Made by a program: the position numbers and the translations under genes. Of a stretch of DNA of 42,286 nt, positions 1,438 to 39,881 are shown piece by piece. The notes beneath the pieces were generated by a model. That model searched no databases, was not told where the DNA came from, and was given only the letters and a program-made list of their open reading frames with translations. Location: positions 1 through 42,286 of IMG/VR virus record IMGVR_UViG_3300009963_000014; one strand, written 5' to 3'. Origin of the DNA: a virus. The stretch's first letter is position 1. Each line of letters opens with the position of its first letter.

Positions 1438-4400
1438 GCTATTGTTTTCTCCATTTTTTCTATTTTTTGATTTAATTCTTGGATGGCCTTAATTAAGTAA
1501 GGTACAAGTTCAAATGTGCGATATGAGTATGCACCATCAGGGTTTTCAAAAAATGCTTCAGGGGCATATTTCTGGACATCTTGTGCCATGATACCGCAAG
1601 AGATATCCTCAATTTTGCCATCGTACTCTTTACGATAGCTGTATGTTTTTAAATTATTGATAGCATCTAGACCAGATACTTGACTATCTTGAATATTGGA
1701 TTTATAACGACGGTCCGAGATTTCTTTATTCATCTGAATCCAATCTCTACCACTGTTACCTTGTCTATCCAAATATAGCCACTCACCGCCTTGTGAATAA
1801 TCTTTCCATAATTTATTGTATATAGGTGAGTAAAGCCACTCACCGCCACTATAAGTAATACGACCAGACACATTCAAACTACCATTTATCACTGCTCCAT
1901 TTGAAAACGACGGTTGACTATAAAAATTCACTGTTGATCTATTCGAAAAGTCGACCTTCCCGTGGAAATCCGCTCCGTTTCGGCAATACATATTTCCAGA
2001 CGTTGTCACATACCAAGCATTGGGACCAGGATAGTTCCAACTGTAACCCCAGTTCGCCCAAAATGCAGTATTTTCGCCATTATAACTGCCACCTTCGCCG
2101 TTTCCCATACCAACTGAGAATTGGTTGATACCAGAAATCCAGCGACCTCTTCCTTGGTCAAAACGCCCAATAGTGAATCCACCGATTCGGCCTTGGTAAG
2201 CTTCTAGGAATGTTGAGGTAGAAATGACGGACTCGACTTTTGTCGCAAAAATTTGTTTAGATGTCAGTTGTTCAATAAAAGCTTCATTTGTAATCATTTT
2301 CCTAATAAACGCATTATCAAATTTCACTTTCTCGGCCGTGACCGCTTCAGCGTCTAATATCGCAGTCGTGACCGAACTAGATTCAAAATTGGCTGTCTTC
2401 AGCTTATCAACCATAGCTGACTTGATAACCGCATTATCAATCAAGGTCTCGCCAGTTATATGAAATGTTTTTCCTATAAATCTATTGCGACCGTCAGCAC
2501 CCAGATTGATCCCAGAGATGATATCCCCAGCTGAGTTGATGTTCTGAACTGCCCATGAACCCGCAATCTGTGTGACTTGTGTCCGTATTGCTTCCGCTGT
2601 CCTTTTTGCTTCTTCAGCCTTTTCAGCAACTTGAATTGCCCGTGTTTGAGCGCTTTCTGCTAGTTCTTTAGCTTCTTTTGTCTGTTTGTACGCGTCATCA
2701 AATTGGCTAGGCTTGTACGTTCCTGTTCTACTACCTCTAACTAAAATAGGTTCTTTGAACTCAATCCAACCATTTTTGGCTAAATATATGTAAAATGGAT
2801 AGTTTGCGTCTTCACCAAAAGCGAAATCTTCTCGGACGGTAAAAGTTTTTTGAAACTCTTGCCATTCGTTTAATGCTGACTGTTCCTTACCGATATCAGA
2901 AGAAAGCAAGGTTTTATTTAAACCGTGATTTTTGATATTGAAAGCAAACGTACTATCTGGATATTCCTTGATACGGTATTTAAAACCTAGCGTATATGTT
3001 TCACCTTGATAGATTTTTTTAACGTAAATAGGTAGTGAAAATCCTGACCAATTATAACTGGTAAGACCCTGTGCCTTAATTGTAAAGATACCATTATTAA
3101 CAGAAATATCAGCTTTAGGATTGCTATTTCCGATAAGTGTATGCTTGCCCATTGTCATGGAATTGACAATCAAGTTGTTATCATCTGTTACATACTTTCC
3201 AACTTCCGTCTGGAAAATCTCGCTACTCATGACAAGCCGTGATAGCTTGTCAGGTGCTCCTGTTTCGGATGTGCCTAAAATGCGCTCGTATAACTGGCTT
3301 GTCTCTTGGACTCGCTGGAAGTCAGTAGTCTCTACTTTTCGCGCTAGTTGATTGGTCACATTCTTAAATTGACTATCAGCATCCGCTTTGTTTGCAGAAA
3401 CCTGATCAGATATTATATCCATTTGTCGTTCAGCATTATCCTTGTTTGTAGCAACCTGAGTCTTTAAATTTGAAATCTGATTATCTGTACCTTCTTTGTT
3501 ACTGTTTATCCGATTTGAAAGATTTGAAATCTGAGTAGTGGTTCCTTGCTCACTGCTTGTAAGTCTATTTGATAGACCACTGATTTGACCGCCCACATCT
3601 TGCTTATAAGTAGTTATCTGACTGGAAATATCCGTGAATTTCCCATCGACTGTCTGCCGATAATTCGCAAGTCGAGTTGTAAGTTCATTGCTTGCATTTT
3701 TCTTGGCTTCTTCGATTCGTTGGTTGATTCCGCGGACATCTTCCTGATAGGTTACCTTCCCGACAAAATCACGGCTCACAAGCTCACGGACTGTTGTCGC
3801 TTGTCGGGCGCTCTCATCACGAGAATATTTTCGTAAAGCTTCTTGTCTCTGTCCGTCTTGGCTGACATAGCTTTCAACCGCTGCTAGCTTCATAGACAGA
3901 CCTTCGGCGGTCTTCTCAAATTCAGATTTGGCAACGACCAGATCCGTCTTGCCATCTTCGGGGGCAGGACCCGCATCTATACGAGTAGAACTTCTGGTCA
4001 ATTCAACCTTGCGAAAGGCTACATGACCAATCTCGTTATAACCGAGAATGATTCGCCAGAGATCGAAATTATCAGGCTTGGTCAGCGCTGGTATAGTGAC
4101 TTGATAAGTCTGCCAGCTAGACGTAAGATTAAAATTGCCAGATATAATCTCAGGATTGCCAGGTACTGTTCGATTGGCTCTTAAAGAGACCCAAACCCTT
4201 GGATTTCCAGAGTGACACATAGCTTGAAAAGAAAGCGTATAAGTTTCGCCAAGTTCCAAGTCTAGAAGAGCTGTCGAACTCTTACCTGAAGCTTGACTTC
4301 CTTCTTTCGAATGGATTTGCAACTGTTTCCAAGTCTTCGTGGTTCCTTTTACATTATATTCTCCGTTTGAGATAGTCCAATCTCGAGGGCTGTTATCACC

Positions 4401-32411: not shown

Positions 32412-32753
32412 CTACTTCGTCACCTCTTTCATCAATTTATTTGCTTCTTTGATCAGCAAACGCATAACGTTGCTATCCGTTTCTTTCTCTGCTGCTCTTG
32501 TCAGCATATCCACCCACTCACGTCTAGTATCATTCTTCCAGTCGACCAACTCCGTGAGCGCTTGTGTGTGATTAAAGTAAGGCGAGTAATCGTATGACTT
32601 ATCTTCCAAGCGAACGCATCTGCCTGCCTTGATGTCTTTGGCCAGGTTCGCTCTCACATTACTATTTGTTGTACCAACGACCTCAGCTACTTCATCATAT
32701 GAGGCAGCAGGGTGCTCTCTATAATATTCCCTAATTCGTTCCGCTTGAGTCAT
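32412..32753 (-). CDS. Putative HTH DNA-binding protein
   Basis: 113 aa. SYDEVAEVVGTTNSNVRANLAKD resembles a helix-turn-helix. Confidence 0.65.
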   Translation of the reverse strand: MTQAERIREYYREHPAASYDEVAEVVGTTNSNVRANLAKDIKAGRCVRLEDKSYDYSPYFNHTQALTELVDWKNDTRREWVDMLTRAAEKETDSNVMRLLIKEANKLMKEVTK

Positions 32754-32764
32754 TTGTCCTCTCC

Positions 32765-32995
32765 TTACACGTTCATATTCACGTTTGAACTTGCATCTTC
32801 AATCAATGCTTTCAAATCGTTTTGATATTTATCAATTAGTTGTCTATTGTTGTTTACAAAATTTTCAACAACTTGTCCAAGAAATTCTTGAGTTGGAATT
32901 CCTTTGATATCAGCCAGTAATTTTACAAATTCTTTCTGTTCCTCAGTCACTTCTGCTCTGAGAAATGACTTCCCTTTATGATGTAAATCCATCAA
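32765..32995 (-). CDS. Hypothetical protein
   Basis: 76-aa ORF. Confidence 0.65.
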   Translation of the reverse strand: MMDLHHKGKSFLRAEVTEEQKEFVKLLADIKGIPTQEFLGQVVENFVNNNRQLIDKYQNDLKALIEDASSNVNMNV

Positions 32996-33080
32996 TCATA
33001 CGCCCTTCCTTTAAATTCATTTTTGATTTCCACGCTCTCACATTTCACACATTCAAGAGGTAGATAAATCCCACGCTTGT

Positions 33081-33407
33081 CTATCCCATACGATTTGCAT
33101 ATTGCACTCTCCGTGGTTCTGGCAATGCTAGAGGCTCAGGGCGCAAACCTACAGGCGGTTCGTTGTCGTATGTAAATCCCTTGAACGGACGACGAATATT
33201 CTTGCGAATTTCTTGGCGCTCTGCCTCTCTACCACGTTCGTATGCATGGTTGTACCCTTGGATAATCATAGACGCAAATTCTTGCTCTTCTCGTCTTTCT
33301 TCTTCCTTGCGTTGTTCCTGCAATTTGATATGACGACAAGCTCCTGCAAATCCAATCAGCAAACTTCCTACTCCCATTAATTGATTTAAAATCGGTGGTT
33401 CAAACAT
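33081..33407 (-). CDS. Hypothetical membrane-anchored protein
   Basis: 108 aa. N-terminal hydrophobic helix followed by a charged E/R-rich region. Confidence 0.65.
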   Translation of the reverse strand: MFEPPILNQLMGVGSLLIGFAGACRHIKLQEQRKEEERREEQEFASMIIQGYNHAYERGREAERQEIRKNIRRPFKGFTYDNEPPVGLRPEPLALPEPRRVQYANRMG

Positions 33408-33423
33408 TTGTTTCTCTCCTGTT

Positions 33424-33690
33424 TTAAATTACTAAATACGCTTGGATAAACTCATCCAATTCTTTTCTGTCAATTCTCTTGGTTCCGTCTATCTTGTAAA
33501 GATTCAATCCCATTCTTAACCATTTCCTGATAGTATTTGCACTACAATCTGAGTAGTTAGCAGCACTCTCTATTGATAGCCAACGTTTCTCCAACGTCTC
33601 ATGGTCAAGTAACTCTTGAAATGATTCCTTGAATTGAGTTCTTACATCTAATCGGATACCATTTTCACATTCTTCACTAAGTAGGTTCAC
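33424..33690 (-). CDS. MerR/excisionase-type HTH protein (possible Xis or early regulator)
   Basis: 88 aa. WLSIESAANYSDCSANTIRKWLRMGL resembles HTH_17. Confidence 0.65.
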   Translation of the reverse strand: MNLLSEECENGIRLDVRTQFKESFQELLDHETLEKRWLSIESAANYSDCSANTIRKWLRMGLNLYKIDGTKRIDRKELDEFIQAYLVI

Positions 33691-33720
33691 AATAGCCTCC
33701 TAATGTGTTATAATTCAGTT

Positions 33721-33762
33721 AGTTATATTAGTATGCGCCTGACTTCGTTAGGTGCTTTTTTT
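33721..33762 (+). ncRNA. Candidate ~40-nt RNA from a near-consensus promoter that fires directly into a terminator
   Basis: TTCACA-N17-(TGt)TATAAT at 33686-33714. Hairpin gcgccugac-uuc-guuaggugc at 33735-33755 (its two G-U pairs form only on the plus strand), then U7. Confidence 0.4.
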
Positions 33763-33770
33763 CGTTGTTG

Positions 33771-33914
33771 TCAAACTGTCTTACTTTCCAGCGCCCTGAG
33801 TTCTATCTCATGGCTGACTTGTCTAAATAGCTTCTCACACGCTATTTTTGCTTCTCTGTACGTTGTAGATTCGCTGATGAAGTAATCAGCAAGTTCAATG
33901 ACTTTATCTTCCAT
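33771..33914 (-). CDS. Possible 47-aa ORF
   Basis: Not in the ORF track. ATG at 33914 with AGGAG 6 nt upstream. Encodes MEDKVIELADYFISESTTYREAKIACEKLF.... Confidence 0.4.
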   Translation of the reverse strand: MEDKVIELADYFISESTTYREAKIACEKLFRQVSHEIELRALESKTV

Positions 33915-34030
33915 TCAGACTCCTATATCAGTCTTGAGACTGATGTTTTTTTCTCCTCGATTGCTATAATAATCTTGACTAGGACCTCTCACCGTTTTAG
34001 TCAAAATTCCAATAGAAAGGAAAAGATAGT

Positions 34031-34198
34031 ATGGCAAATACTCCAATAAAACCTGGAACAGATAATCAGAAACCTGGTCGCTATGTAGAGGTAGGACCTC
34101 GTGGTGGCAAAGTCGCTAATGGTCATACCGCAACTATCGAAAAAGGTGATCGGCTCCCTCCGACATCTGCTAAAGGCAACGGCTGGAAAAAAGTCTAA
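34031..34198 (+). CDS. YjzC-like small protein (55 aa)
   Basis: Not in the ORF track. Encodes MANTPIKPGTDNQKPGRYVEVGPRGGKVANGHTATIEKGDRLPPTSAKGNGWKKV, matching the YjzC pattern. Own TGcTATAAT promoter (33962-33970) and terminator. Confidence 0.7.
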   Translation: MANTPIKPGTDNQKPGRYVEVGPRGGKVANGHTATIEKGDRLPPTSAKGNGWKKV

Positions 34199-34338
34199 TC
34201 TTCGTTTGCGTACAATCGTTCAATGGTTGTACGCTTTTTCCATACACAAAAGCACATTCCAAAAAAATCAATTTGAATCCATGCTTCGGCGTAATCTTTC
34301 CCATTGCTGGCATAGTGAGTTATATAATGGTGAATCAT
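34195..34338 (-). CDS. Possible 47-aa ORF
   Basis: Not in the ORF track. AGGAGGAAGG RBS. Encodes MIHHYITHYASNGKDYAEAWIQIDFFGMCFCVWKK.... Confidence 0.4.
   Translation of the reverse strand: MIHHYITHYASNGKDYAEAWIQIDFFGMCFCVWKKRTTIERLYANED
34208..34239 (+). terminator. Rho-independent terminator of the YjzC-like gene
   Basis: gcguacaa-N11-uuguacgc followed by UUUUU. Confidence 0.65.
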
Positions 34339-34352
34339 TTTATTCCTTCCTC

Positions 34353-34478
34353 CTATTGAGTTACTTGAGAAGTATCATGAATGGCTTCATAGCTAAGACG
34401 CTTGAATTTTTCTAAGTCTATCTGTAAATTGATAGGCTTTTTTATTTCTCCACTATACGGATATCGTCTTGGTCTCAT
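34353..34478 (-). CDS. Possible 41-aa basic ORF
   Basis: Not in the ORF track. AAAGGAGGACGGAA-ATG. Encodes MRPRRYPYSGEIKKPINLQIDLEKFKRLSYEAIHDTSQVTQ. Confidence 0.5.
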   Translation of the reverse strand: MRPRRYPYSGEIKKPINLQIDLEKFKRLSYEAIHDTSQVTQ

Positions 34479-34532
34479 TTCCGTCCTCCTTTTTGTTTAT
34501 GGTATAATGAAATTAAAAACGAGGTAATTCGG

Positions 34533-35039
34533 ATGTTTAGTTTGATTGATATTTTGAATATTTCTGCCGCTTGGCTTGGTGCTATTACTGGTGTTGTTAG
34601 CTTGATTTACTCTTTGAAAGTCAATAGAGTGAAATTGAGTATTTCTAAATTCCGTAAAAAGAGAATGAACGAATACTCCTGTTATCAATACAGTTTTGTT
34701 TTGTCTAACCAATCCAACTCAAATGTCGTAATCAAGAATATCCAACTGTTTGACAAAAACGGAAAAGAAATTTTTGACAACGGATTTAATCCAGCTACTG
34801 CTTTTCCTGAGATAAAATCAGACCCTTTTGGTTTGGTTAGTAGTACACAGACCTTGTTTAACGTAGATTGGTACTCTACACCATTTGAAGATGAAATAGA
34901 ATTAAATCCATACTCATTCGAAAAGTTGTCATACTACCTTAACGAACCTCCACATACTATCAAGGTCAAGACCAACAGACAAATTCATTATCTTTCTAAA
35001 TCTAAATCATTCCATCCTGTCTTTAATAAAGCAAAATAG
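34533..35039 (+). CDS. N-terminally membrane-anchored protein, unknown function (candidate lysogen-expressed exclusion/defence factor)
   Basis: 168 aa. TM helix ISAAWLGAITGVVSLIYSL. Own TGgTATAAT promoter at 34500-34508. Oriented against the early operon. Confidence 0.75.
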   Translation: MFSLIDILNISAAWLGAITGVVSLIYSLKVNRVKLSISKFRKKRMNEYSCYQYSFVLSNQSNSNVVIKNIQLFDKNGKEIFDNGFNPATAFPEIKSDPFGLVSSTQTLFNVDWYSTPFEDEIELNPYSFEKLSYYLNEPPHTIKVKTNRQIHYLSKSKSFHPVFNKAK

Positions 35040-35099
35040 ATTTATTACAGCACAAACCACATTTACGCTTGTTACTATGATTAGTCCTAGCTCACTCAT
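35007..35099 (-). CDS. Possible 30-aa hydrophobic peptide
   Basis: Not in the ORF track. AAGGAGGA lies 5 nt before the ATG at 35099. Encodes MSELGLIIVTSVNVVCAVINLFCFIKDRME. Overlaps the 3' end of 34533-35039 convergently. Confidence 0.3.
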   Translation of the reverse strand: MSELGLIIVTSVNVVCAVINLFCFIKDRME

Positions 35100-35343
35100 T
35101 CTTTCCTCCTTTTCTCCTTTGCAGTAATTGCAAAATACATCCCATAACAGACCGTCTAGGAAGTAGTTCTAGCTTTTTCTGAGCTTGTTCTACTTCTTTT
35201 TTTGCTCCTTCTATAGAAATTAGAGTTGGGTTATCAAACCAATCTTTTTCTAAATAATACCTTTGCCCACGCTCAGACATATAATCAATCAATGACTGAA
35301 AATGCTTTATGCGTTCATGAAGATGTTCTTTATTTTCTTCCAT
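35092..35343 (-). CDS. Hypothetical 83-aa protein
   Basis: ORF track. GAAAGGAG RBS is supplied by the 65-bp repeat. Confidence 0.65.
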   Translation of the reverse strand: MEENKEHLHERIKHFQSLIDYMSERGQRYYLEKDWFDNPTLISIEGAKKEVEQAQKKLELLPRRSVMGCILQLLQRRKGGKNE

Positions 35344-35347
35344 CCTA

Positions 35348-35412
35348 CTCCTTTCTATTTCTAATCTCCATTTCTGCTATAATATAAGCAGAAAGGAGGT
35401 AATGTTATGACT
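35348..35412 (+). promoter_or_regulatory. 65-bp repeat copy 1: extended -10 promoter inside perfect palindrome, plus RBS and ATG ACT
   Basis: TGcTATAAT at 35375-35383. TTTCTGCT-N8-AGCAGAAA at 35371-35394. AAAGGAGG at 35392-35399. Confidence 0.7.
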
Positions 35413-35646
35413 GAAATTCACGCATGTCTTTGCGGAAATTGGGTGAATCTATCAGCTGAAGACGATTGTGTAATGGGACCAAATATGGCTAGTCCTTACA
35501 TTTGGTGGGAAGAAAATGCAGAACTCTACTCACCAATTTCTAAACCTGAAGCAAACTCGATGTACCATCAGGATTATATCTACATTCACTATCGTGGCGC
35601 TGACTATCGTATCCATCCAATTTTTATTCAAATCGTTTCTAGATAA
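35407..35646 (+). CDS. Small acidic protein (79 aa), unknown function
   Basis: ORF track. Strong RBS and promoter from repeat copy 1. Antisense to the early operon. Confidence 0.75.
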   Translation: MTEIHACLCGNWVNLSAEDDCVMGPNMASPYIWWEENAELYSPISKPEANSMYHQDYIYIHYRGADYRIHPIFIQIVSR

Positions 35647-35809
35647 CTCTTTCTAGTCTTTTAGAAATGATTTCTACATCTGAGCCGTCCAGTTTCAACT
35701 GGTCGGCTTTTTCATTTAAACGAGCTTCTACAACTTGGTTAATTTCAATCCATTCTCGTTTTGTAAATTGACTTCTGAATTTTAAAAATTCGTTTATTGT
35801 TTCTTTCAT
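35639..35809 (-). CDS. Hypothetical 56-aa protein
   Basis: Not in the ORF track. ATG at 35809 with GAAAGGAGG upstream. Encodes MKETINEFLKFRSQFTKREWIEINQVVEARLNEKADQLKLDGSDVEIISKRLERVI. Confidence 0.5.
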   Translation of the reverse strand: MKETINEFLKFRSQFTKREWIEINQVVEARLNEKADQLKLDGSDVEIISKRLERVI

Positions 35810-35817
35810 GGTTTGTC

Positions 35818-35882
35818 CTCCTTTCTATTTCTAATCTCCATTTCTGCTATAATATAAGCAGAAAGGAGGTAATGTTATGACT
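35818..35882 (+). promoter_or_regulatory. 65-bp repeat copy 2 (identical to 35348-35412)
   Basis: Exact repeat. Palindrome at 35841-35864. Confidence 0.7.
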
Positions 35883-36116
35883 TTTAAAGAATATTTGACA
35901 ATAGCAAGCAAACGCGACATCTACGATGATGGTAAAGATTTTGATTTTGAAACCATCTTTGCTAGAGAAATATTACGTTATGCACACGATTCCGAACTGG
36001 AAACCAAAACAGGTTTCTTTCGTCATCTTGAAATCATGGATGCCGAAGCTTGGTTTATCGAACTTGCTCGCTCAGTCTATCAAGATTTTGAGAAATCAAT
36101 TTCAGATTCTCACTAA
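35877..36116 (+). CDS. Small strongly acidic protein (79 aa), unknown function
   Basis: ORF track. 18 D/E versus about 10 K/R. Driven by repeat copy 2. Confidence 0.75.
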   Translation: MTFKEYLTIASKRDIYDDGKDFDFETIFAREILRYAHDSELETKTGFFRHLEIMDAEAWFIELARSVYQDFEKSISDSH

Positions 36117-36234
36117 TCGAGCGTGACTTTTTTTGATACGGCAATCTCAGAAATTTACCACCAGCGCTGACTACCTTAATGATTTTTTCAAGGTGGTCTT
36201 TTTCTTTTTCAAGAGCATCAATAAATTCTTCCAT
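36055..36234 (-). CDS. Possible 59-aa coiled-coil ORF
   Basis: Not in the ORF track. GGAGGACGG-ATG directly after the cro stop. Overlaps the 3' end of 35877-36116 by 62 nt. Confidence 0.4.
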   Translation of the reverse strand: MEEFIDALEKEKDHLEKIIKVVSAGGKFLRLPYQKKSRSISENLKLISQNLDRLSEQVR

Positions 36235-36242
36235 CCGTCCTC

Positions 36243-36434
36243 CTACTCAATCCCATAATCTTCAATCACTTGAAGAATGAAACTGTTCGCTCGTGGACCT
36301 TTAGTCGTTCCACTTAGAATATTTGTTACTTCCTGTCGTTTAAAGCCATAAGCAACCGCTAGAGTTGTTTTTTTGATCCCTTTCTCTTTCAAGAAAGTAT
36401 TAACTTTTTCACGACCGTTTGTGATATCTGGCAT
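36243..36434 (-). CDS. Cro-like HTH regulator (first gene of the early lytic operon)
   Basis: ORF-track 36243-36455. The ATG at 36434 has AAAGGAGGAACGTAT upstream. KKTTLAVAYGFKRQEVTNILSG resembles an HTH. Divergent from cI. Confidence 0.7.
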   Translation of the reverse strand: MPDITNGREKVNTFLKEKGIKKTTLAVAYGFKRQEVTNILSGTTKGPRANSFILQVIEDYGIE

Positions 36435-36537
36435 ATACGTTCCTCCTTTTTCCAAAAATAAAAAATGCCCTATCTAACTGATAGAGCATGTGATATAATA
36501 GTGACGGCACATCTGCCTTAGAAGGGAGGTGGAGCCT

Positions 36538-36627
36538 ATGGTAGATTACATCCTCACAAATATTATTCTACCCTTGGTGGTCGGTATCATCCTGATAGTC
36601 ATTGAAAAATGGCTAAACAAGAAATAG
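36538..36627 (+). CDS. Fst-family-like type I toxin peptide (29 aa)
   Basis: Not in the ORF track. AGGGAGGTGGAG RBS. Encodes MVDYILTNIILPLVVGIILIVIEKWLNKK. TGaTATAAT promoter at 36491-36499. Confidence 0.65.
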   Translation: MVDYILTNIILPLVVGIILIVIEKWLNKK

Positions 36628-36657
36628 CGACCAACCCACCTTTCTAGCGTAGACTAG

Positions 36658-36698
36658 AAAAAGCCCTTGCTTTTGTGGTTATCAGCAGGGGCTTTTTT
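36658..36698. terminator. Bidirectional rho-independent terminator
   Basis: A5-gcccuugcu-N12-agcaggggc-U6. Preceded by a second hairpin uuucuag-N6-cuagaaa at 36641-36660. Confidence 0.7.
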
Positions 36699-36727
36699 GT
36701 AGTTATAGTAGACTACATCTTCACTTC
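36658..36727 (-). ncRNA. Candidate antitoxin sRNA (~70 nt) convergent with the toxin mRNA
   Basis: TTGACA (36763-36758)-N18-TGaGATAAT (36742-36734). The RNA's 5' end pairs with the toxin start region. Ends at the shared terminator. Confidence 0.55.
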
Positions 36728-36816
36728 CCCTATATTATCTCACATGCTCTATTCAATTGTCAAGGAACAAGTAAACAAGAAACAACTAAAAATTTAACTA
36801 TTTTTCTGCATTATGC

Positions 36817-36845
36817 TTGACAACTAACACCAAATCGGCTAAAAT
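36817..36845 (+). promoter_or_regulatory. Sigma-70-type promoter TTGACA-N17-TAAAAT directed toward cI
   Basis: Read directly. The -35 overlaps one ACAACTAA motif. Confidence 0.5.
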
Positions 36846-37041
36846 GAAAGCATAATAAAAACACTAATAAATCCATAAATACCGTTCGCCAAAACATTTT
36901 TTATAATTTATTTCTTAGTTGTTTTTTTAGTTGTAACTTACTTACAAAAAACATTTTACACCTTTTGGGATAATTAGTCAACCTTTTTACACCGAATTTG
37001 TTAAATATTTTTTGTAATGTCTTAGAAAGGTTGATTTAACA

Positions 37042-37392
37042 ATGTTTGAGACATTTGAAAAAATAAAAGAATTGGCAAAAAAGCGTGGAAAATCTCTTGG
37101 ACAAGTCGAAGAAGACTTAGGTTATGGCAGAAATACACTGTATAAGATAAAAAACTCTACGCCAAATGCTGAACGTATAGCAGAAATTGCTAACTACTTC
37201 AACGTATCCACCGACTACCTGCTCGGACGAACAGATAACCCAGTTATCGCTGGGGATACCGTCACAAAAACAGAAATAGACCTCAAAAAGGACGCAGCAG
37301 AAAGCTTCTTTTACGATGGACACGAACTCAACGACGAGGATTTAGACCTCATCTCCTCACTACTAGAAGCTCGTATGAGAAATAGAAAGTAA
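37042..37392 (+). CDS. XRE-family phage repressor (cI/ImmR-like, no S24 peptidase domain)
   Basis: 116 aa. N-terminal HTH_3 ...LGQVEEDLGYGRNTLYKIKN.... Followed by an ImmA-type protease gene. Confidence 0.9.
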   Translation: MFETFEKIKELAKKRGKSLGQVEEDLGYGRNTLYKIKNSTPNAERIAEIANYFNVSTDYLLGRTDNPVIAGDTVTKTEIDLKKDAAESFFYDGHELNDEDLDLISSLLEARMRNRK

Positions 37393-37395
37393 TAC

Positions 37396-37785
37396 TTGCC
37401 TATGACAACACCCGAACAAGTCTGTTCTGAACAAGGTATCGATCTAGTTTATTTTGATGGTAGAGGTTCCCACAATAAAGGACTTTACAACCAACCCTAC
37501 AATCTTATAGCGGTAGACACTTACCTAGATGATATTGAGAAAAAGAAAGTCATCTATCACGAGATAGGGCACAAAGACCACAACCCGGAGCAGTATAAAC
37601 GAAGACGAGAAGAATACGAACTCCAAGCAGATAGAAACATGATCCACTACCTGCTAAAAGAAGAACTAGAAACGATGGATGACATCACTAATTTCAACTA
37701 CCTCCATTTCATGGAAAAATACAACCTCAAAACCATGACAAACGAAATCATGGTCAAGGAAGAATATTTATCATTAGTAAATTAA
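37396..37785 (+). CDS. ImmA/IrrE-family zinc metalloprotease (anti-repressor protease)
   Basis: HEIGH motif. Partner of the XRE repressor. Alternative ATG start at 37402. Confidence 0.85.
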   Translation: MPMTTPEQVCSEQGIDLVYFDGRGSHNKGLYNQPYNLIAVDTYLDDIEKKKVIYHEIGHKDHNPEQYKRRREEYELQADRNMIHYLLKEELETMDDITNFNYLHFMEKYNLKTMTNEIMVKEEYLSLVN

Positions 37786-37798
37786 AAAAGGAGAAAAC

Positions 37799-38221
37799 AT
37801 GAGTAGCTTTAACCAAAAGAGCAATCCGTTTAAGGAAAAAATGACCTCGATTCGAATTGTTCAACCTGAAAGTGGTCAACTCTTAGGTACAGTAACTAAT
37901 TTCGACTCATTCCCTGGCTCGACAAATCTGATCGCTTTTTTAGATTTTTTTAATTTAATCCCCGGTAAAACTTATATATTATCCGTGAATGCTTATTTTC
38001 AAGATGGCATAAATTACCCAGTCCATGCTACAAGGATTAACATACCTCAAAGTGAGTTCATAGATTTGAAAGATAATTACGGGAAATCGACAGGTCATTT
38101 TGATTTTAGTTTTACAATTCGGTTCCCGAATGATTTTTACTTTTATTTCAATCTGTCTGACGAGGATGGAAATCAGTTAGATGAAGCATATAGTTACCAT
38201 TCTTTTATAAATCAGGGGTAA
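37799..38221 (+). CDS. Hypothetical cytoplasmic protein, lysogeny-operon cargo
   Basis: 140 aa. AAGGAG RBS. No TM segment and no motif recognised. Confidence 0.75.
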   Translation: MSSFNQKSNPFKEKMTSIRIVQPESGQLLGTVTNFDSFPGSTNLIAFLDFFNLIPGKTYILSVNAYFQDGINYPVHATRINIPQSEFIDLKDNYGKSTGHFDFSFTIRFPNDFYFYFNLSDEDGNQLDEAYSYHSFINQG

Positions 38222-38224
38222 GCT

Positions 38225-38659
38225 ATGTCAGAACTACAAAACAATTTCAAACCTACTACCTCTAACGTTTCCTCTATTCATGCTTCTAAACCGTCGTTAA
38301 AAACTGTACCCATACAAAATAATGATATAATGGAGGAAACAAGAGAATTGGAGGAACGATATATGGCAAACGATACATATACCAAGACAGAAATCGATTT
38401 AAAACTTGATAAAATCAATTCTGATGTCAAACATGGTTTTGAAAAGGTTGATTTAAAATTCGACCAAACCAGAACTGAAATGCGTGATGGTTTTGAAAAT
38501 ATGGGACTTCGAATGGAAAAGATGTTCTCTGATTTCAAATTGGAGCAACAAAAAGAGAAAGAAGAAAACAAAAAATGGTTAATCGCATTAACCATCGGAT
38601 CTCTTCTTTCAATTATCGGGATTGTGGTTTCAATTATCGCTATCCTAGTACAAAAATAA
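38225..38659 (+). CDS. Tail-anchored membrane protein with coiled-coil repeats (XhlA-like architecture), lysogeny-operon cargo
   Basis: 144 aa. Internal GFEKVDLKFD / GFENMGLRME repeat. C-terminal TM WLIALTIGSLLSIIGIVVSIIAILV. Confidence 0.75.
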   Translation: MSELQNNFKPTTSNVSSIHASKPSLKTVPIQNNDIMEETRELEERYMANDTYTKTEIDLKLDKINSDVKHGFEKVDLKFDQTRTEMRDGFENMGLRMEKMFSDFKLEQQKEKEENKKWLIALTIGSLLSIIGIVVSIIAILVQK

Positions 38660-38777: not shown

Positions 38778-39881
38778 ATGATTGGAAAATACCAAAAAAA
38801 TGGTACTACTGCTTATTACTTTAAAGCATATCACGGACTTGACCCTTTAACAAATCAAAAAATTATTACCAAACGTCGTGGTTTTAAAACAGAGCGTGAA
38901 GCAAGACTTGCTGAAGCAAAATGCTTAGCTGAGTATGAGAAGAAAACTTTTAGAGCAAAAAATACCACTACTACTTTTAGACAGGTATTTGAGGTTTGGA
39001 AAGAACATTATAAAGGCGCTGTCAAAGAATCGACATATATAAGCCAAATAGACAAAGCAGAGAGACTCATACTCCCGTTTTTTGGGGATAAGGCTATCAA
39101 TAAGATTAGTCTCGTCATGTGTCAAAATCAAGTCAATAAATGGGCTTCAGAATACAAGCAGTTCTTTGGGATCATCAGCATAGCTAACCAAATATTCGAT
39201 TACGCTATTTCAATGGAATTGATTGAAAATAATCCAATGAGAAAGACATTGAAGCCTAAACGACAAAAAAATAATACAGATGAACTAGAAAAGTTCTACA
39301 ACAAAGAAGAGCTGCAAGAGTTTTTTGAAATCGTTAATGATTTTGATGATATAGAGATGCTTACATTCTTCCGTCTGCTGGCATTTACTGGAATGAGAAA
39401 GAATGAAATCAGCGCCCTCAGATGGTCTGATATCGATCTGAAGAGCGGACAGATAACTGTTAATCAAACCTTGGCTAAGGGGGGAGATAATAAACTTATC
39501 TTTCAGACTCCAAAGACAAAAAAGAGTGCCCGAACAATTACCCTAGATAAAAAGACAATTGAAGTTTTAAAAGAATGGCACAAGTATAGTACTAAAGGAC
39601 TCCTCTTCAAAAACGAAAACGGCGAGCCGAAAAGTGTCGTCCATGTTAACAATATGCTTAACAGGATTTGGAGGAAGTATCCAGATTTTAAACGTATCAC
39701 ACCTCACGGTTTCAGACATACCCATTGCTCCTTGCTCTTTGAAGCTGGTGCTACCATCAAAGAGGTTCAAGAAAGACTCGGTCACGAGAACATTCAAACG
39801 ACCATGGACATATATGCTCACGTCACTCAAAAAGCAAAGGATGAAGTGGCTGATAAATTCGCTTCTTACATAGGTTTTTAA
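38778..39881 (+). CDS. int: Tyrosine integrase
   Basis: 367 aa. C-terminal HGFRHTH...LGHENIQTTMDIYAHV catalytic motif. Confidence 0.95.
   Translation: MIGKYQKNGTTAYYFKAYHGLDPLTNQKIITKRRGFKTEREARLAEAKCLAEYEKKTFRAKNTTTTFRQVFEVWKEHYKGAVKESTYISQIDKAERLILPFFGDKAINKISLVMCQNQVNKWASEYKQFFGIISIANQIFDYAISMELIENNPMRKTLKPKRQKNNTDELEKFYNKEELQEFFEIVNDFDDIEMLTFFRLLAFTGMRKNEISALRWSDIDLKSGQITVNQTLAKGGDNKLIFQTPKTKKSARTITLDKKTIEVLKEWHKYSTKGLLFKNENGEPKSVVHVNNMLNRIWRKYPDFKRITPHGFRHTHCSLLFEAGATIKEVQERLGHENIQTTMDIYAHVTQKAKDEVADKFASYIGF

What the first reader, a model, noticed from the sequence alone, without database searches (positions are those of the whole stretch)
35348..35882. Exact 65-bp duplicated palindromic-operator promoter driving two unrelated small acidic proteins against the lytic operon
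35348-35412 and 35818-35882 are identical over 65 bp in otherwise unique DNA. Each copy holds four elements:
- TGcTATAAT
- a perfect inverted repeat TTTCTGCT-N8-AGCAGAAA around it (35371-35394; 35841-35864)
- an AAAGGAGG RBS
- the first two codons (ATG ACT) of a 79-codon plus-strand ORF

The two ORFs (35407-35646 and 35877-36116) show no similarity to each other. Both are net acidic, about -6 and -8. On its other flank each repeat supplies the RBS region of a small minus-strand ORF (35092-35343; 35639-35809).

A palindromic operator over the -10, a strong RBS and small acidic proteins on the lysogeny strand form the architecture of autoregulated anti-defence (acr/aca-like) loci or lysogen-expressed morons. 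No regulator is obviously assigned.
Basis: partly seen in the sequence, partly recalled or inferred. Interest (0 to 1): 0.7.

Follow-up and report, generated by a model that had tools for sequence, protein, structure and literature searches.

The report
Portable promoter heading prophage gene cassettes
The exact 65-bp repeat is two copies of a compact promoter-plus-ribosome-site module that Streptococcus prophages reuse to switch on at least 25 unrelated small genes of unknown function, all inserted backwards into the early lytic operon, which makes the module a marker for finding such accessory genes.

Summary
35348-35412 and 35818-35882 are identical, and each copy holds TcTGcTATAAT, an inverted repeat around it, a strong ribosome site and ATG ACT.

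It is not a private duplication. The core TCTGCTATAAT-N5-CAGAAAGGAG occurs in more than 120 viral contigs, 110 GenBank Streptococcus phages and about 40 Streptococcus species. It sits 7-10 nt before the start codon of at least 25 unrelated small, mostly acidic ORFs. It almost always points with cI/integrase and against the lytic genes.

- Each cargo gene travels with its convergent minus-strand partner, while the upstream context varies. The module therefore marks the 5' edge of a shuffled two-gene cassette.
- The 79a/56-aa pair is conserved, in the same backward position, in Staphylococcus and Clostridioides difficile prophages.
- Only this phage has identical copies; 25 other two-copy genomes show 52-94%. 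That points to recent recombination.

Half of the palindrome is explained by the extended -10 and the Shine-Dalgarno sequence. Complementarity is nevertheless selected: a second promoter class before the same gene has swapped, compensating arms. I read it as a hairpin that hides the ribosome site in read-through RNA. An operator is not excluded.

No acr/aca features, regulator or known fold were found. Verdict: a new variant of the moron theme, of moderate interest.

The parts
35348..35412 (+). Module copy 1. It contains the SD of the minus-strand 83-aa gene (CTCC 35348-35351), the anti-SD arm, the extended -10 promoter, the predicted start site, the SD and the first two codons of 79a.
   Evidence: Exact 65-nt repeat. 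The same core lies before 25 cargo families.
35818..35882 (+). Module copy 2. It is identical to copy 1 and heads 79b. Its first bases are the SD of the minus-strand 56-aa gene.
35373..35383 (+). Extended -10 promoter TcTGcTATAAT with no usable -35. In copy 2 it lies at 35843-35853.
   Evidence: Read from the sequence. It is invariant in the family while the 5 nt after it vary. In many phages it follows directly on a plus-strand terminator. Function is inferred, not measured.
35390..35400 (+). Predicted transcription start A35390 (C at -1, 7 nt after the -10). This is also the first base of AGAAAGGAGGT, an 11-nt complement of the 16S rRNA 3' end. The leader is 17 nt. In copy 2 the stretch is 35860-35870.
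   Evidence: Spacing read. The 16S 3' end sequence is from general knowledge. The start site is predicted only.
35366..35398 (.). Inverted repeat CTCC-a-TTTCTGCT / AGCAGAAA-GGAG with the -10 in its 8-nt loop. In copy 2 it lies at 35836-35868.
   Evidence: Plus-strand RNA folds at -18.4 kcal/mol, z = -3.95. Minus-strand RNA folds at -16.9 kcal/mol, z = -2.36. Compensating arm classes exist.
35407..35646 (+). Cargo gene 79a (79 aa, phrog_3240), predicted as a small beta-rich domain.
   Evidence: PHROG match E = 2e-40. Homologues at 55-72% identity occur in Staphylococcus, C. difficile, Paenibacillus and Trichococcus. AF2 mean pLDDT is 93.4. There is no PDB fold match.
35682..35714 (+). Intrinsic terminator of the 79a unit. 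It lies inside the coding sequence of the convergent 56-aa gene and has a T-run on the plus strand only.
   Evidence: the region folds at -32.8 kcal/mol, z = -7.7.
35639..35809 (-). 56-aa gene (phrog_1534). It is the convergent partner of 79a and their 3' ends overlap by 8 nt.
   Evidence: The partner is homologous in Staphylococcus (54% identity, E = 5e-20) and weakly in C. difficile. It is linked to 79a in 13 of 14 instances.
35877..36116 (+). Cargo gene 79b (79 aa, phrog_7607), predicted as five helices.
   Evidence: PHROG match E = 3e-51. Homologues are confined to Streptococcus. AF2 mean pLDDT is 88.5. Best fold match is 2o6k (UPF0346), TM 0.70-0.76 but E = 3.
36055..36234 (-). 59-aa gene (phrog_6987). 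It is the convergent partner of 79b and their 3' ends overlap by 62 nt.
   Evidence: It is the most common partner of this cargo, 9 of 14 instances, plus truncated variants.
35092..35343 (-). 83-aa gene (phrog_6248), the next early-direction gene after cassette A. It starts 5 nt from copy 1.
34488..35039 (+). A related backward unit: promoter TATGGTATAAT-N8-AAAAACGAGG followed by a 168-aa gene with an N-terminal membrane segment (phrog_4989).
   Evidence: The cassette is absent from the close relative L239.
33961..34234 (+). Another backward unit: TTGCTATAAT, a hairpin leader, a 55-aa ORF (34031-34198) and a terminator (34208-34234).

Best explanation
**What it is.** Each 65-bp copy is a portable expression module read by the host's own machinery.
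- An extended -10 sigma-A promoter (TcTGcTATAAT, no -35) is predicted to start transcription at A35390 / A35860.
- That start is the first base of an 11-nt perfect Shine-Dalgarno sequence. The mRNA therefore has a 17-nt leader and needs no phage factor.

**What it heads.** The module opens a two-gene cassette inserted backwards into the early lytic operon of Streptococcus temperate phages.
- A small cargo gene is transcribed with cI/integrase. Here the cargo genes are 79a and 79b.
- A convergent, 3'-overlapping small gene is read with the lytic operon. Here these are the 56-aa and 59-aa genes.
- 79a also has its own one-way terminator, which makes it a complete moron-type unit.

**How it evolves.** Phages exchange, reorder, gain and lose these cassettes by recombination at the conserved module. 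The 100% identity of the two copies here is the trace of a recent recombination or gene conversion event. It is not a conserved design feature.

**The inverted repeat.** It places a complement of the start-site and SD region (CTCC-a-TTTCTGC) just upstream of the -10.
- RNA started at the module's own promoter lacks this arm and is freely translated.
- RNA that crosses the module from outside contains both arms and folds a 12-14 bp hairpin. This applies to read-through from an upstream plus-strand unit and, on the other strand, to the lytic transcript.
- On the plus strand that hairpin buries the SD. The repeat would thus insulate each cassette from its surroundings.
- Oncoming lytic transcription would be expected to shut the backward promoters down on induction.

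**Status of each step.**
- Shown: the repeat, its anatomy, its distribution, cargo diversity, orientation, linkage and the predicted fold.
- Inferred: promoter activity, the start site, the insulating role of the hairpin and interference by lytic transcription.
- Unknown: what the cargo proteins do.

**Confidence.** About 0.7 for the module-and-cassette reading as a whole, and about 0.4 for the insulating role of the hairpin.
For: **Distribution**
- It is in 110 GenBank Streptococcus phages, including S. pyogenes T12 and 315.2.
- It gives 54 matching stretches among species-representative genomes, mostly Streptococcus.

**Cargo**
- 152 instances precede 25 unrelated ORF families of 53-176 aa, 21 of 24 scored families being net acidic.
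- The start codon lies 7-10 nt after GGAG.

**Evidence that it is a promoter**
- In many phages the module follows directly on a plus-strand intrinsic terminator. That leaves no room for another promoter.
- TcTGcTATAAT and CAGAAAGGAG stay invariant while the 5 nt between them vary freely.

**Orientation**
- 102 of 111 informative left flanks carry minus-strand long ORFs.
- 104 of 123 informative right flanks carry plus-strand long ORFs.

**The cassette as the unit of exchange**
- Each cargo has one dominant convergent partner: 26/27, 13/16, 13/14, 10/13, 6/7 and 6/6.
- Each cargo has 3-5 different upstream contexts.
- Cassette order differs between phages, and the 168-aa cassette is missing from relative L239.
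- The 79a/56-aa pair is kept in the same backward, 3'-overlapping layout in Staphylococcus and C. difficile prophages.

**Terminator.** 35682-35714 on the plus strand only.

**Exact identity is unusual.** Copies within one genome are 52-94% identical in 25 other genomes.

**Inverted repeat**
- The hairpin is -18.4 kcal/mol with z = -3.95 and encloses the SD.
- The outer CTCC/GGAG pairing is kept even where the upstream side is a terminator rather than a divergent RBS.
- A second promoter class before the same cargo gene has arms TTCAGAC/GTCTGAA. Four of seven pairs are changed on both sides, and it has its own -35 (TTGTTA) so the left arm has no promoter role.
- Further complementary variants are TCTGAA/TTCAGA, TTTCTGTT/AACAGAAA and TCTGA/TCAGA.
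- Predicted folds have 69 G-U pairs on the plus strand against 23 on the minus strand.
Against: - No transcription data were available. Promoter activity, the start site and expression in lysogens are predictions.
- Inside the main class the arms hardly vary, so covariation rests on a few alternative classes. Those may be only a handful of independent events.
- The innermost pairs are often broken (AGT, AAC and CTAG variants).
- The excess of plus-strand G-U pairs could reflect C-to-T mutation bias rather than selection.
- The hairpin forms about equally well on the minus strand. Mean energies are -11.7 kcal/mol (plus) and -12.1 kcal/mol (minus).
- Tight linkage of cargo and partner could simply reflect the absence of intergenic DNA between overlapping genes.
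- In C. difficile, the promoter of the 79a homologue carries a different 16-bp palindrome just downstream of the -10 and faces a small HTH gene. That layout looks like an operator.
- The leftward early transcript has to cross terminator-like hairpins before cro. How the minus-strand partners are transcribed is therefore not settled.
Confidence: 0.7

Rival explanations
1. The inverted repeat is an operator. A dimeric DNA-binding protein, phage or host, sits on the -10 and co-regulates all module-headed genes, as Aca proteins do at anti-CRISPR promoters. Under this reading the cargo genes are anti-defence genes switched on briefly at infection.
For: - The repeat is centred on the -10, and complementarity is kept in alternative arm classes.
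- In 50 of 152 instances the divergent neighbour is a small Cro-like HTH protein of family U00 or U01. T12 annotates this neighbour as 'putative Cro repressor'.
- The C. difficile homologue of 79a has a different palindrome at its promoter and a divergent 65-aa HTH gene.
- Small acidic proteins with a strong promoter, a strong RBS and a terminator match the features used to pick Acr candidates in Streptococcus prophages (PMC7229843).
Against: - The same arms occur next to unrelated HTH families, next to non-HTH genes and next to terminators.
- No similar site lies in the cI/cro intergenic region of the window.
- Phages with different repressor types share the module. T12 has a cI-type repressor and the window has an ImmR/ImmA-type pair.
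- Class 2 arms are the same tetramers in everted order. One protein would not read both.
- There is no HTH gene within the plus-strand units.
- There are no hits to defence or anti-defence families or to solved structures.
Confidence: 0.2
2. The module is a symmetric two-way promoter. The near-palindromic -10 also fires leftwards (TATTAT, 35384-35379) and drives the adjacent minus-strand genes of 83 and 56 aa. The arms would be the mirrored start regions of the two transcripts.
For: - The consensus scan finds ATAACA-18-TATTAT on the minus strand in both copies, 9 of 12 matches.
- TATAAT followed by A always gives a minus-strand hexamer with the key A at -11 and T at -7. This follows from general knowledge of symmetric bacterial promoters.
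- Minus-strand genes start 5-9 nt from the repeat.
- Terminator-like hairpins upstream of cro suggest the early genes may need extra promoters.
Against: - The minus-strand -35 and TG are not conserved in the family.
- The module is just as conserved where no minus-strand gene follows, in the terminator contexts.
- The symmetry axis of the arms (35382.5) is 1.5 bp away from that of the overlapping -10 hexamers (35381).
- Cargo is only loosely linked to the divergent gene.
Confidence: 0.15
3. The hairpin works in the lytic (minus-strand) mRNA. There the antisense of the cargo SD reads CCUCCUUUCU, a mimic of the 16S rRNA tail that could mask the SD of the next early gene. The second arm would neutralise it, or the stem would be an RNase processing or stabilising site between early genes.
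For: - The minus-strand fold is -16.9 kcal/mol, z = -2.36, and leaves the downstream SD (35350-35358) free.
- Across 94 variants the minus-strand hairpin is on average slightly more stable than the plus-strand one, and it is the more stable of the two in 48 of 94.
- Every module lies in the path of the early operon.
Against: - G-U pairs favour the plus strand, 69 against 23.
- In class 2 the plus-strand fold has 12-13 pairs and the minus-strand fold 7-11.
- No cleavage or stability data exist.
Confidence: 0.2
4. The repeat is a neutral recent duplication with no function of its own.
For: The copies are 100% identical, as expected for a young duplication.
Against: - The DNA between and beyond the copies is unrelated, so this is not a tandem duplication.
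- The same module is conserved across Streptococcus species and hundreds of phages, always directly before an ORF.
Confidence: 0.02

Closest known systems
Morons of temperate phages: independent promoter-gene-terminator units added between phage genes (definition as in the abstract of PMC3594210, seen)
   Same: - Self-contained promoter, and for 79a a terminator.
- Small accessory genes of unknown role.
- Present, absent or reordered among otherwise related phages.
- Transcribed in the prophage direction.
   Different: - Here many unrelated morons share one nearly invariant 45-nt promoter/SD module that carries an inverted repeat.
- They are arrayed backwards inside the early lytic operon.
- Each is locked to a convergent, overlapping lytic-direction partner gene.
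Anti-CRISPR (acr-aca) loci, including the Streptococcus prophage proteins AcrIIA20 and AcrIIA21 (PMC7229843)
   Same: - Small acidic proteins behind a strong promoter and RBS, often ending in a terminator.
- Hypervariable gene content at a conserved position.
- An inverted repeat at the promoter.
   Different: - No aca-type HTH gene in the unit.
- No sequence or fold match to any known family.
- S. pneumoniae, a main host, lacks CRISPR-Cas (general knowledge).
- The sequences of AcrIIA20 and AcrIIA21 could not be obtained for comparison.
Extended -10 promoters of Streptococcus pneumoniae (TnTGnTATAAT, active without a -35; general knowledge)
   Same: Exact match to the consensus, with no -35 in the main class.
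   Different: Those are ordinary chromosomal promoters. Here the promoter is fused at its start site to a maximal SD and is flanked by an arm complementary to that SD.
Conserved boundary or linker sequences between genes of lambdoid phages, proposed to guide modular exchange by homologous recombination (general knowledge)
   Same: A short conserved intergenic sequence lies at the junction where unrelated genes are swapped.
   Different: Here the conserved sequence is itself a working expression signal, and it marks only the 5' edge of a two-gene convergent cassette.
Convergent promoter switches such as pR/pL of coliphage 186, which act by transcriptional interference (general knowledge)
   Same: Lysogenic-direction promoters face the lytic transcript head-on, so each can damp the other without a dedicated regulator.
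   Different: In 186 the convergent pair is the genetic switch itself. Here the cI/cro switch lies elsewhere (36770-37040), and up to four backward units are scattered along the early operon.
Integron gene cassettes with attC sites
   Same: An array of unrelated small genes, each bounded by an imperfect inverted repeat in which pairing is conserved more than sequence.
   Different: - No IntI-type integrase dedicated to the array.
- The repeat lies at the 5' end and carries the promoter, whereas integron cassettes are promoterless.
- Homologous recombination is enough to explain the mosaics seen.

Membership tests
Moron (independent accessory transcription unit in a prophage) | Own promoter directly upstream of the gene | tested here: met
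   TcTGcTATAAT lies 23 nt before each ATG. In other phages it follows a terminator with no room for another promoter. This is sequence-level evidence only.
Moron (independent accessory transcription unit in a prophage) | Own terminator downstream | tested here: inconclusive
   79a has a clear intrinsic terminator at 35682-35714. 79b has only a weak hairpin plus a T-run near 36109-36135, z = -0.5.
Moron (independent accessory transcription unit in a prophage) | Present or absent between otherwise similar phage genomes | tested here: met
   Cassette order differs in L232, L090 and L008, and the 168-aa cassette is missing from L239. The same module precedes 25 cargo families.
Moron (independent accessory transcription unit in a prophage) | Expressed from the repressed prophage | not testable with these tools
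   No transcriptome of a lysogen carrying the module was available. The published SpSL1 and SF370 data could not be mapped to a module.
acr-aca anti-CRISPR operon | An HTH (Aca) gene in the same operon as the small inhibitor genes | tested here: not met
   Each plus-strand unit holds one ORF. No HTH was found in 79a or 79b.
acr-aca anti-CRISPR operon | Inverted-repeat operator at the promoter, bound by Aca | tested here: inconclusive
   An inverted repeat is present. No binder was identified, and the neighbouring HTH families vary while the arms stay the same.
acr-aca anti-CRISPR operon | Similarity to a known Acr or Aca protein | tested here: not met
   No Pfam, NCBIfam, PADLOC or PDB sequence hits. 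No Foldseek hit at E<=0.001. No dedicated Acr database was at hand.
Pneumococcal extended -10 promoter | TnTGnTATAAT consensus | tested here: met
   T35373 C T G C TATAAT 35383, and the same at +470.
Pneumococcal extended -10 promoter | Activity independent of a -35 element | not testable with these tools
   The best -35 candidates at 16-18 bp are poor (CTATTT, TCTATT). Activity was not measured.
Symmetric bidirectional promoter | Opposed -10 hexamers sharing the A(-11)/T(-7) base pairs, with start sites about 18 bp apart | tested here: inconclusive
   Minus-strand TATTAT lies at 35384-35379, which predicts starts at 35390 and about 35372. The minus-strand -35 and TG are not conserved.
Integron-like cassette array | Dedicated IntI integrase and attC at the 3' end of promoterless cassettes | tested here: not met
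   The only integrase is the phage integrase at 38778-39881. The repeat is at the 5' end and carries the promoter.
Type I toxin-antitoxin (Fst-like) unit | Short hydrophobic toxin with an overlapping antisense RNA | tested here: not met
   79a and 79b are soluble and acidic, and they are predicted to fold with high confidence. A true Fst-like locus lies next door at 36465-36765.

The most novel reading that the evidence does not exclude
The module is more than a constitutive promoter. Its structure-conserved inverted repeat would make it sense the direction of transcription, or respond to a regulator. It would keep an array of prophage-encoded effector genes on in lysogens and at entry, and switch them off when the lytic operon fires.

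The obligate convergent gene pairs, for example 79a/56-aa conserved from Streptococcus to Staphylococcus and Clostridioides, would then be matched effector/counter-effector sets. These could serve anti-defence, superinfection exclusion or control of induction.

Under this reading the 26-nt motif would define a previously unrecognised, mineable class of cassette array in Firmicutes prophages.
Probability: 0.15. Interest if true: 0.8.

Novelty: new variant of a known kind. Interest (0 to 1): 0.55.

Why it matters
- **A search handle.** TCTGCTATAAT-N5-CAGAAAGGAG pulls out dozens of families of uncharacterised small proteins. Clinically important streptococci carry them in their prophages: S. pneumoniae, S. 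pyogenes, S. agalactiae, S. suis and the mitis group. Some are present in hundreds to more than a thousand sequenced contigs. These are natural candidates for anti-defence, exclusion or host-modulating functions.
- **An unusual genome layout.** Up to four backward genes are interleaved with early lytic genes, each locked to a convergent partner. This raises a testable question about how convergent transcription and SD-hiding hairpins insulate genes in compact phage genomes.
- **A target family.** 79a and its 56-aa partner are conserved across three genera at 55-72% identity. That level of conservation suggests a conserved host target worth finding.
- **A practical tool.** The 45-nt module is a compact, factor-independent expression signal for streptococci.

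Tried and rejected
- **Known protein families.** Pfam, PHROGs, NCBIfam and PADLOC scans of all neighbouring ORFs gave only PHROGs of unknown function. Sub-threshold Pfam hits (DUF6761, DUF5806, Phage_C) were discarded.
- **Solved structures.** PDB sequence search found nothing for 79b and one E = 0.28 hit for 79a. Foldseek against PDB found nothing at E<=0.001. The SH3-like hits to 79a have TM below 0.41. The 2o6k match to 79b (TM 0.70-0.76, E = 3) is kept only as a lead.
- **Other cargo families.** A Pfam scan of ten gave one KTSC domain. Source names of ten are all 'hypothetical'.
- **Rfam.** No family matched in 32500-38000.
- **Is an inverted repeat around the -10 general?** In 55 unrelated phage promoter families with the same TGnTATAAT-N8-AAAGGAGGT layout it is only weakly enriched (9 observed against 4.4 expected, p = 0.03). 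The repeat is therefore specific to this family.
- **Formal covariation count.** Not run. Within the main class the arms are nearly invariant, and any cross-class alignment would be fitted to the structure.
- **12-nt match inside the cI-like gene.** ATTTCTGCTATA at 37176-37187 (I8/I9) lies within the coding sequence of that gene, so I read it as a chance match.
- **Non-streptococcal genome hits.** Matches in Lachnospiraceae, Oscillospiraceae and Roseburia are ordinary host promoters, some with a -35, before LysR- or XRE-type genes. I treat them as chance.
- **Literature.** Four searches found no description of this module. Papers on pneumococcal prophage regulation, SpSL1 RNA-seq, S. pyogenes sRNA-seq and GBS CovR were read and do not map to it.
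- **AcrIIA20 and AcrIIA21.** Their sequences were sought for comparison, but no supplement is held.
Full report
**1.

- Positions 35348-35412 and 35818-35882 are identical over 65 nt, and identity ends exactly there.
- The 24-nt palindrome TTTCTGCT-N8-AGCAGAAA matches only these two places, even with three mismatches allowed. None are expected by chance.
- Copy 1 reads as follows:
  - CTCC (35348-35351) is the Shine-Dalgarno sequence of the minus-strand 83-aa gene, whose ATG is at 35343.
  - A second CTCC lies at 35366-35369.
  - TcTGcTATAAT is at 35373-35383.
  - AGAAAGGAGGT is at 35390-35400.
  - ATG ACT is at 35407-35412.
- Copy 2 is the same at +470 and abuts the 56-aa gene.
- The two 79-codon plus-strand ORFs are unrelated. 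Their net charges are -6 and -8.

**2. Setting**

The window is a Streptococcus temperate phage of the pneumoniae/mitis group.
- Structural, replication and early genes run on the minus strand.
- On the plus strand lie a cI-like HTH gene (37042-37392), an ImmA-type metalloprotease gene (37396-37785) and the integrase gene (38778-39881).
- A Cro-like HTH gene (36243-36455, minus strand) opens the early genes.

Between it and an excisionase-like gene (33424-33690), minus-strand small genes alternate with four plus-strand units. The units are a 55-aa ORF, a 168-aa ORF, 79a and 79b. All six small ORFs around the repeat fall into PHROG families of unknown function with E-values from 1e-23 to 3e-51, so they are real, recurrent phage genes.

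**3. The repeat is a widespread module**

*Distribution*
- BLAST with the 65-mer finds 110 Streptococcus phage records at 77-95% identity. They include phages of S. oralis, S. mitis, S. pseudopneumoniae, S. parasanguinis, S. dysgalactiae and S. pyogenes T12 and 315.2.
- The core TCTGCTATAAT-N5-CAGAAAGGAG hits at least 120 IMG/VR contigs, where the scan stopped at its limit.
- It also gives 54 matching stretches among species-representative genomes, mostly Streptococcus. A dozen hits in Clostridia are ordinary host promoters.

*Cargo*
- In 152 instances the module lies 7-10 nt before the start codon of ORFs that fall into 25 unrelated families of 53-176 aa. Most are acidic.
- Apart from one KTSC domain, none has a Pfam family or a name other than 'hypothetical'.
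- Several are very common in clinical genomes.

*Orientation*
- Orientation is fixed. Long ORFs upstream of the module are on the opposite strand in 102 of 111 informative cases.
- Those downstream are on the same strand in 104 of 123.

**4. Why I read it as a promoter plus ribosome site**

- TnTGnTATAAT is the pneumococcal extended -10 consensus, which is known to work without a -35 (general knowledge).
- Seven nucleotides after the hexamer, C-A gives the usual pyrimidine/purine start.
- That A is the first base of AGAAAGGAGGT, an 11-nt complement of the 16S rRNA 3' tail (general knowledge). The start codon follows GGAGG after 7 nt.
- In many phages the module comes straight after a plus-strand intrinsic terminator (GCGCCTGA...TCAGGTGC-T6). 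Only about 10 nt lie between the T-run and the left arm, which leaves no room for another promoter.
- The hexamer, TCTGC and CAGAAAGGAG are invariant, while the five bases between them vary freely.
- None of this is a measurement. Promoter activity remains an inference.

**5. The unit that moves is a two-gene convergent cassette**

- Each cargo family has one dominant convergent minus-strand partner:

| Instances with the dominant partner | Family |
|---|---|
| 26/27 | – |
| 13/16 | – |
| 13/14 | 79a with the 56-aa protein |
| 9/14 | 79b with the 59-aa protein, plus truncated forms |
| 10/13 | – |
| 6/7 | – |
| 6/6 | – |

- What lies upstream of the module varies, with 3-5 contexts per cargo. 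These are Cro-like HTH genes of two families (50 instances), other small genes, or a terminator.
- Cassette order differs among phages, and the 168-aa cassette (34493-35144) is absent from the close relative L239.
- 79a has its own terminator at 35682-35714. It is embedded in the 56-aa gene and has a T-run on the plus strand only.
- The 79a/56-aa pair is old.
  - 79a homologues at 55-72% identity occur in Staphylococcus, C. difficile, Paenibacillus and Trichococcus.
  - In the Staphylococcus and C. difficile prophages examined, the gene is again the lone backward gene in the early operon. It overlaps the 3' end of a 55-59 aa partner homologous to the window's 56-aa protein (E = 5e-20 for Staphylococcus and about 1e-5 between C. 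difficile and Staphylococcus).

**6. The exact identity is local and recent**

- Among 26 genomes with two or more copies, only the window has identical copies. The others are 52-94% identical over the same 65 nt.
- The 56-aa gene is usually followed by a 63-aa cargo. Here it is followed by 79b, with the junction inside the module.
- Recombination or gene conversion at the conserved module explains both facts.

**7. The palindrome**

*What is already explained*
- Three left-arm bases belong to TnTG.
- Five right-arm bases belong to the start and SD region.
- The innermost pairs are often broken in relatives (AGT, AAC and CTAG variants).

*Why pairing is nevertheless selected*
- The pairing extends outwards to CTCC/GGAG. 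This outer pairing is kept even where the upstream side is a terminator and no divergent ribosome site could account for it.
- Orthologous 79a genes (86% identical) in another set of oral streptococcal phages have a different promoter: -35 TTGTTA, 17 nt, TATAAT. Its arms are TTCAGAC and GTCTGAA, so four of seven pairs are changed on both sides and the left arm has no promoter role.
- Further complementary variants occur: TCTGAA/TTCAGA, TTTCTGTT/AACAGAAA and TCTGA/TCAGA.
- Unrelated phage promoters of the same layout show only a weak excess of such repeats.

*What the pairing would do*
- On the plus strand the fold (-18.4 kcal/mol, z = -3.95) buries the SD.
- RNA started at the module's own promoter lacks the left arm. 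Only RNA entering from outside would be silenced.
- Predicted folds have three times more G-U pairs on the plus strand than on the minus strand. This leans towards a plus-strand RNA role, but mutation bias could produce the same pattern.
- I give this insulator reading about 0.4.
- The alternatives are an operator, a role in the lytic mRNA, and a two-way promoter. None is excluded, and they are partly compatible with one another.

*Evidence against a phage regulator*
- The arms are the same beside different HTH families and beside none.
- There is no similar site in the cI/cro switch region.
- Phages with different repressor types share the module.

**8. The cargo proteins**

- 79a is predicted with high confidence (mean pLDDT 93.4) as a small beta-rich domain. 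It has invariant Trp, Pro and Tyr positions and no significant PDB neighbour.
- 79b (mean pLDDT 88.5) is a five-helix bundle. Its only notable neighbour is the uncharacterised UPF0346 protein 2o6k (TM 0.70-0.76, E = 3).
- Nothing links either protein to known defence or anti-defence families.
- Small acidic proteins behind strong promoters and ribosome sites, often with terminators, are the features by which Acr candidates were picked in Streptococcus prophages (PMC7229843). The anti-defence idea therefore stays open, but it has no positive evidence here.

**9. Comparison with known systems, and verdict**

- The units meet the sequence-level criteria of morons, as defined in the abstract of PMC3594210.
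- Three features differ from textbook morons:
  - one near-invariant module with a structure-conserved repeat is shared by at least 25 cargo families;
  - the units are arrayed backwards inside the early lytic operon;
  - each is bound to a convergent partner gene.
- Four literature searches found no description of this.
- I class it as a new variant of a known kind, with interest 0.55.
Its regulatory reading is only partly right, and the function of the proteins is unknown.

Noticed in passing
36465-36765: An Fst-like type I toxin-antitoxin locus lies between the cI-like and cro-like genes.
- 32-aa hydrophobic ORF at 36529-36627 (+).
- Plus-strand promoter TGTGATATAAT at 36489-36499, facing a minus-strand promoter at 36763-36734.
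- A 20-nt, 95% inverted repeat at the two 5' ends (36481-36500 / 36733-36752).
- A two-way terminator at about 36665-36700.

The homologous stretch of phage SF39 is annotated 'type I toxin/antitoxin, Fst family'.
   Followed up: partly
36465-36489 and 36665-36700 (minus strand): Two terminator-like hairpins lie between the likely leftward early promoter (TTGACT-17-TAAAAT, 36981-36953) and the cro-like gene (ATG 36434). How the early operon is transcribed past them is unclear.
   Followed up: no
33686-33762: Promoter TTCACA-17-TGTTATAAT is followed about 20 nt later by an intrinsic terminator (33735-33755 plus a T-run). This would give an RNA of about 40 nt. The same terminator type precedes the module in many other phages. 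A 42-nt prophage-associated sRNA with a promoter and terminator is reported in S. pyogenes (PMC4829319), but the sequences were not compared.
   Followed up: no
33961-34234: A second recurrent promoter/leader class: TTGCTATAAT, then the hairpin TTGACTAGGACCTCTCACCGTTTTAGTCAA (z = -3.26), then the 55-aa ORF 34031-34198 and a terminator at 34208-34234. The same leader precedes other unrelated ORFs in other phages, and in one phage it precedes 79a itself.
   Followed up: partly
34493-35144: The cassette with the 168-aa protein (N-terminal membrane segment, phrog_4989; promoter TATGGTATAAT) is cleanly absent from the otherwise 98% identical relative L239. It may be a superinfection-exclusion or abortive-infection protein. 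This was not tested.
   Followed up: partly
34353-34478 (minus strand) and related loci: Many minus-strand small ORFs in this region of different phages begin MRP(K/R)(K/R)YPYSG and then continue with unrelated C-termini. This looks like another conserved junction that reaches into coding sequence.
   Followed up: no
35630-35673: A strong 14-bp-stem hairpin covers the overlapping stop codons of 79a and the 56-aa gene, just upstream of the 79a terminator. The whole 35620-35730 stretch folds at -32.8 kcal/mol, z = -7.7.
   Followed up: no
L216-L218 (C. difficile prophages), 3945-4000: The promoter of the 79a homologue carries a different, 16-bp near-perfect palindrome (ATATAAATATGGAATA/TATTCCAAATTTATAT) immediately downstream of TGGTATAAT. 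It faces a 65-aa HTH gene. This layout looks like an operator and differs from the streptococcal module.
   Followed up: no
38396-38499: A 50-nt direct repeat at 54-nt spacing (70% identity) lies inside the 144-aa ORF 38225-38659. It is an internal 18-residue protein repeat (D2).
   Followed up: no
L317 (Tenericutes MAG contig), 1384-1409: The same module core precedes a 66-aa ORF (MTVYVNLLGQWTALTDDDNINGMPP...) whose N-terminus resembles 79a. The cassette may therefore reach beyond Firmicutes proper.
   Followed up: no
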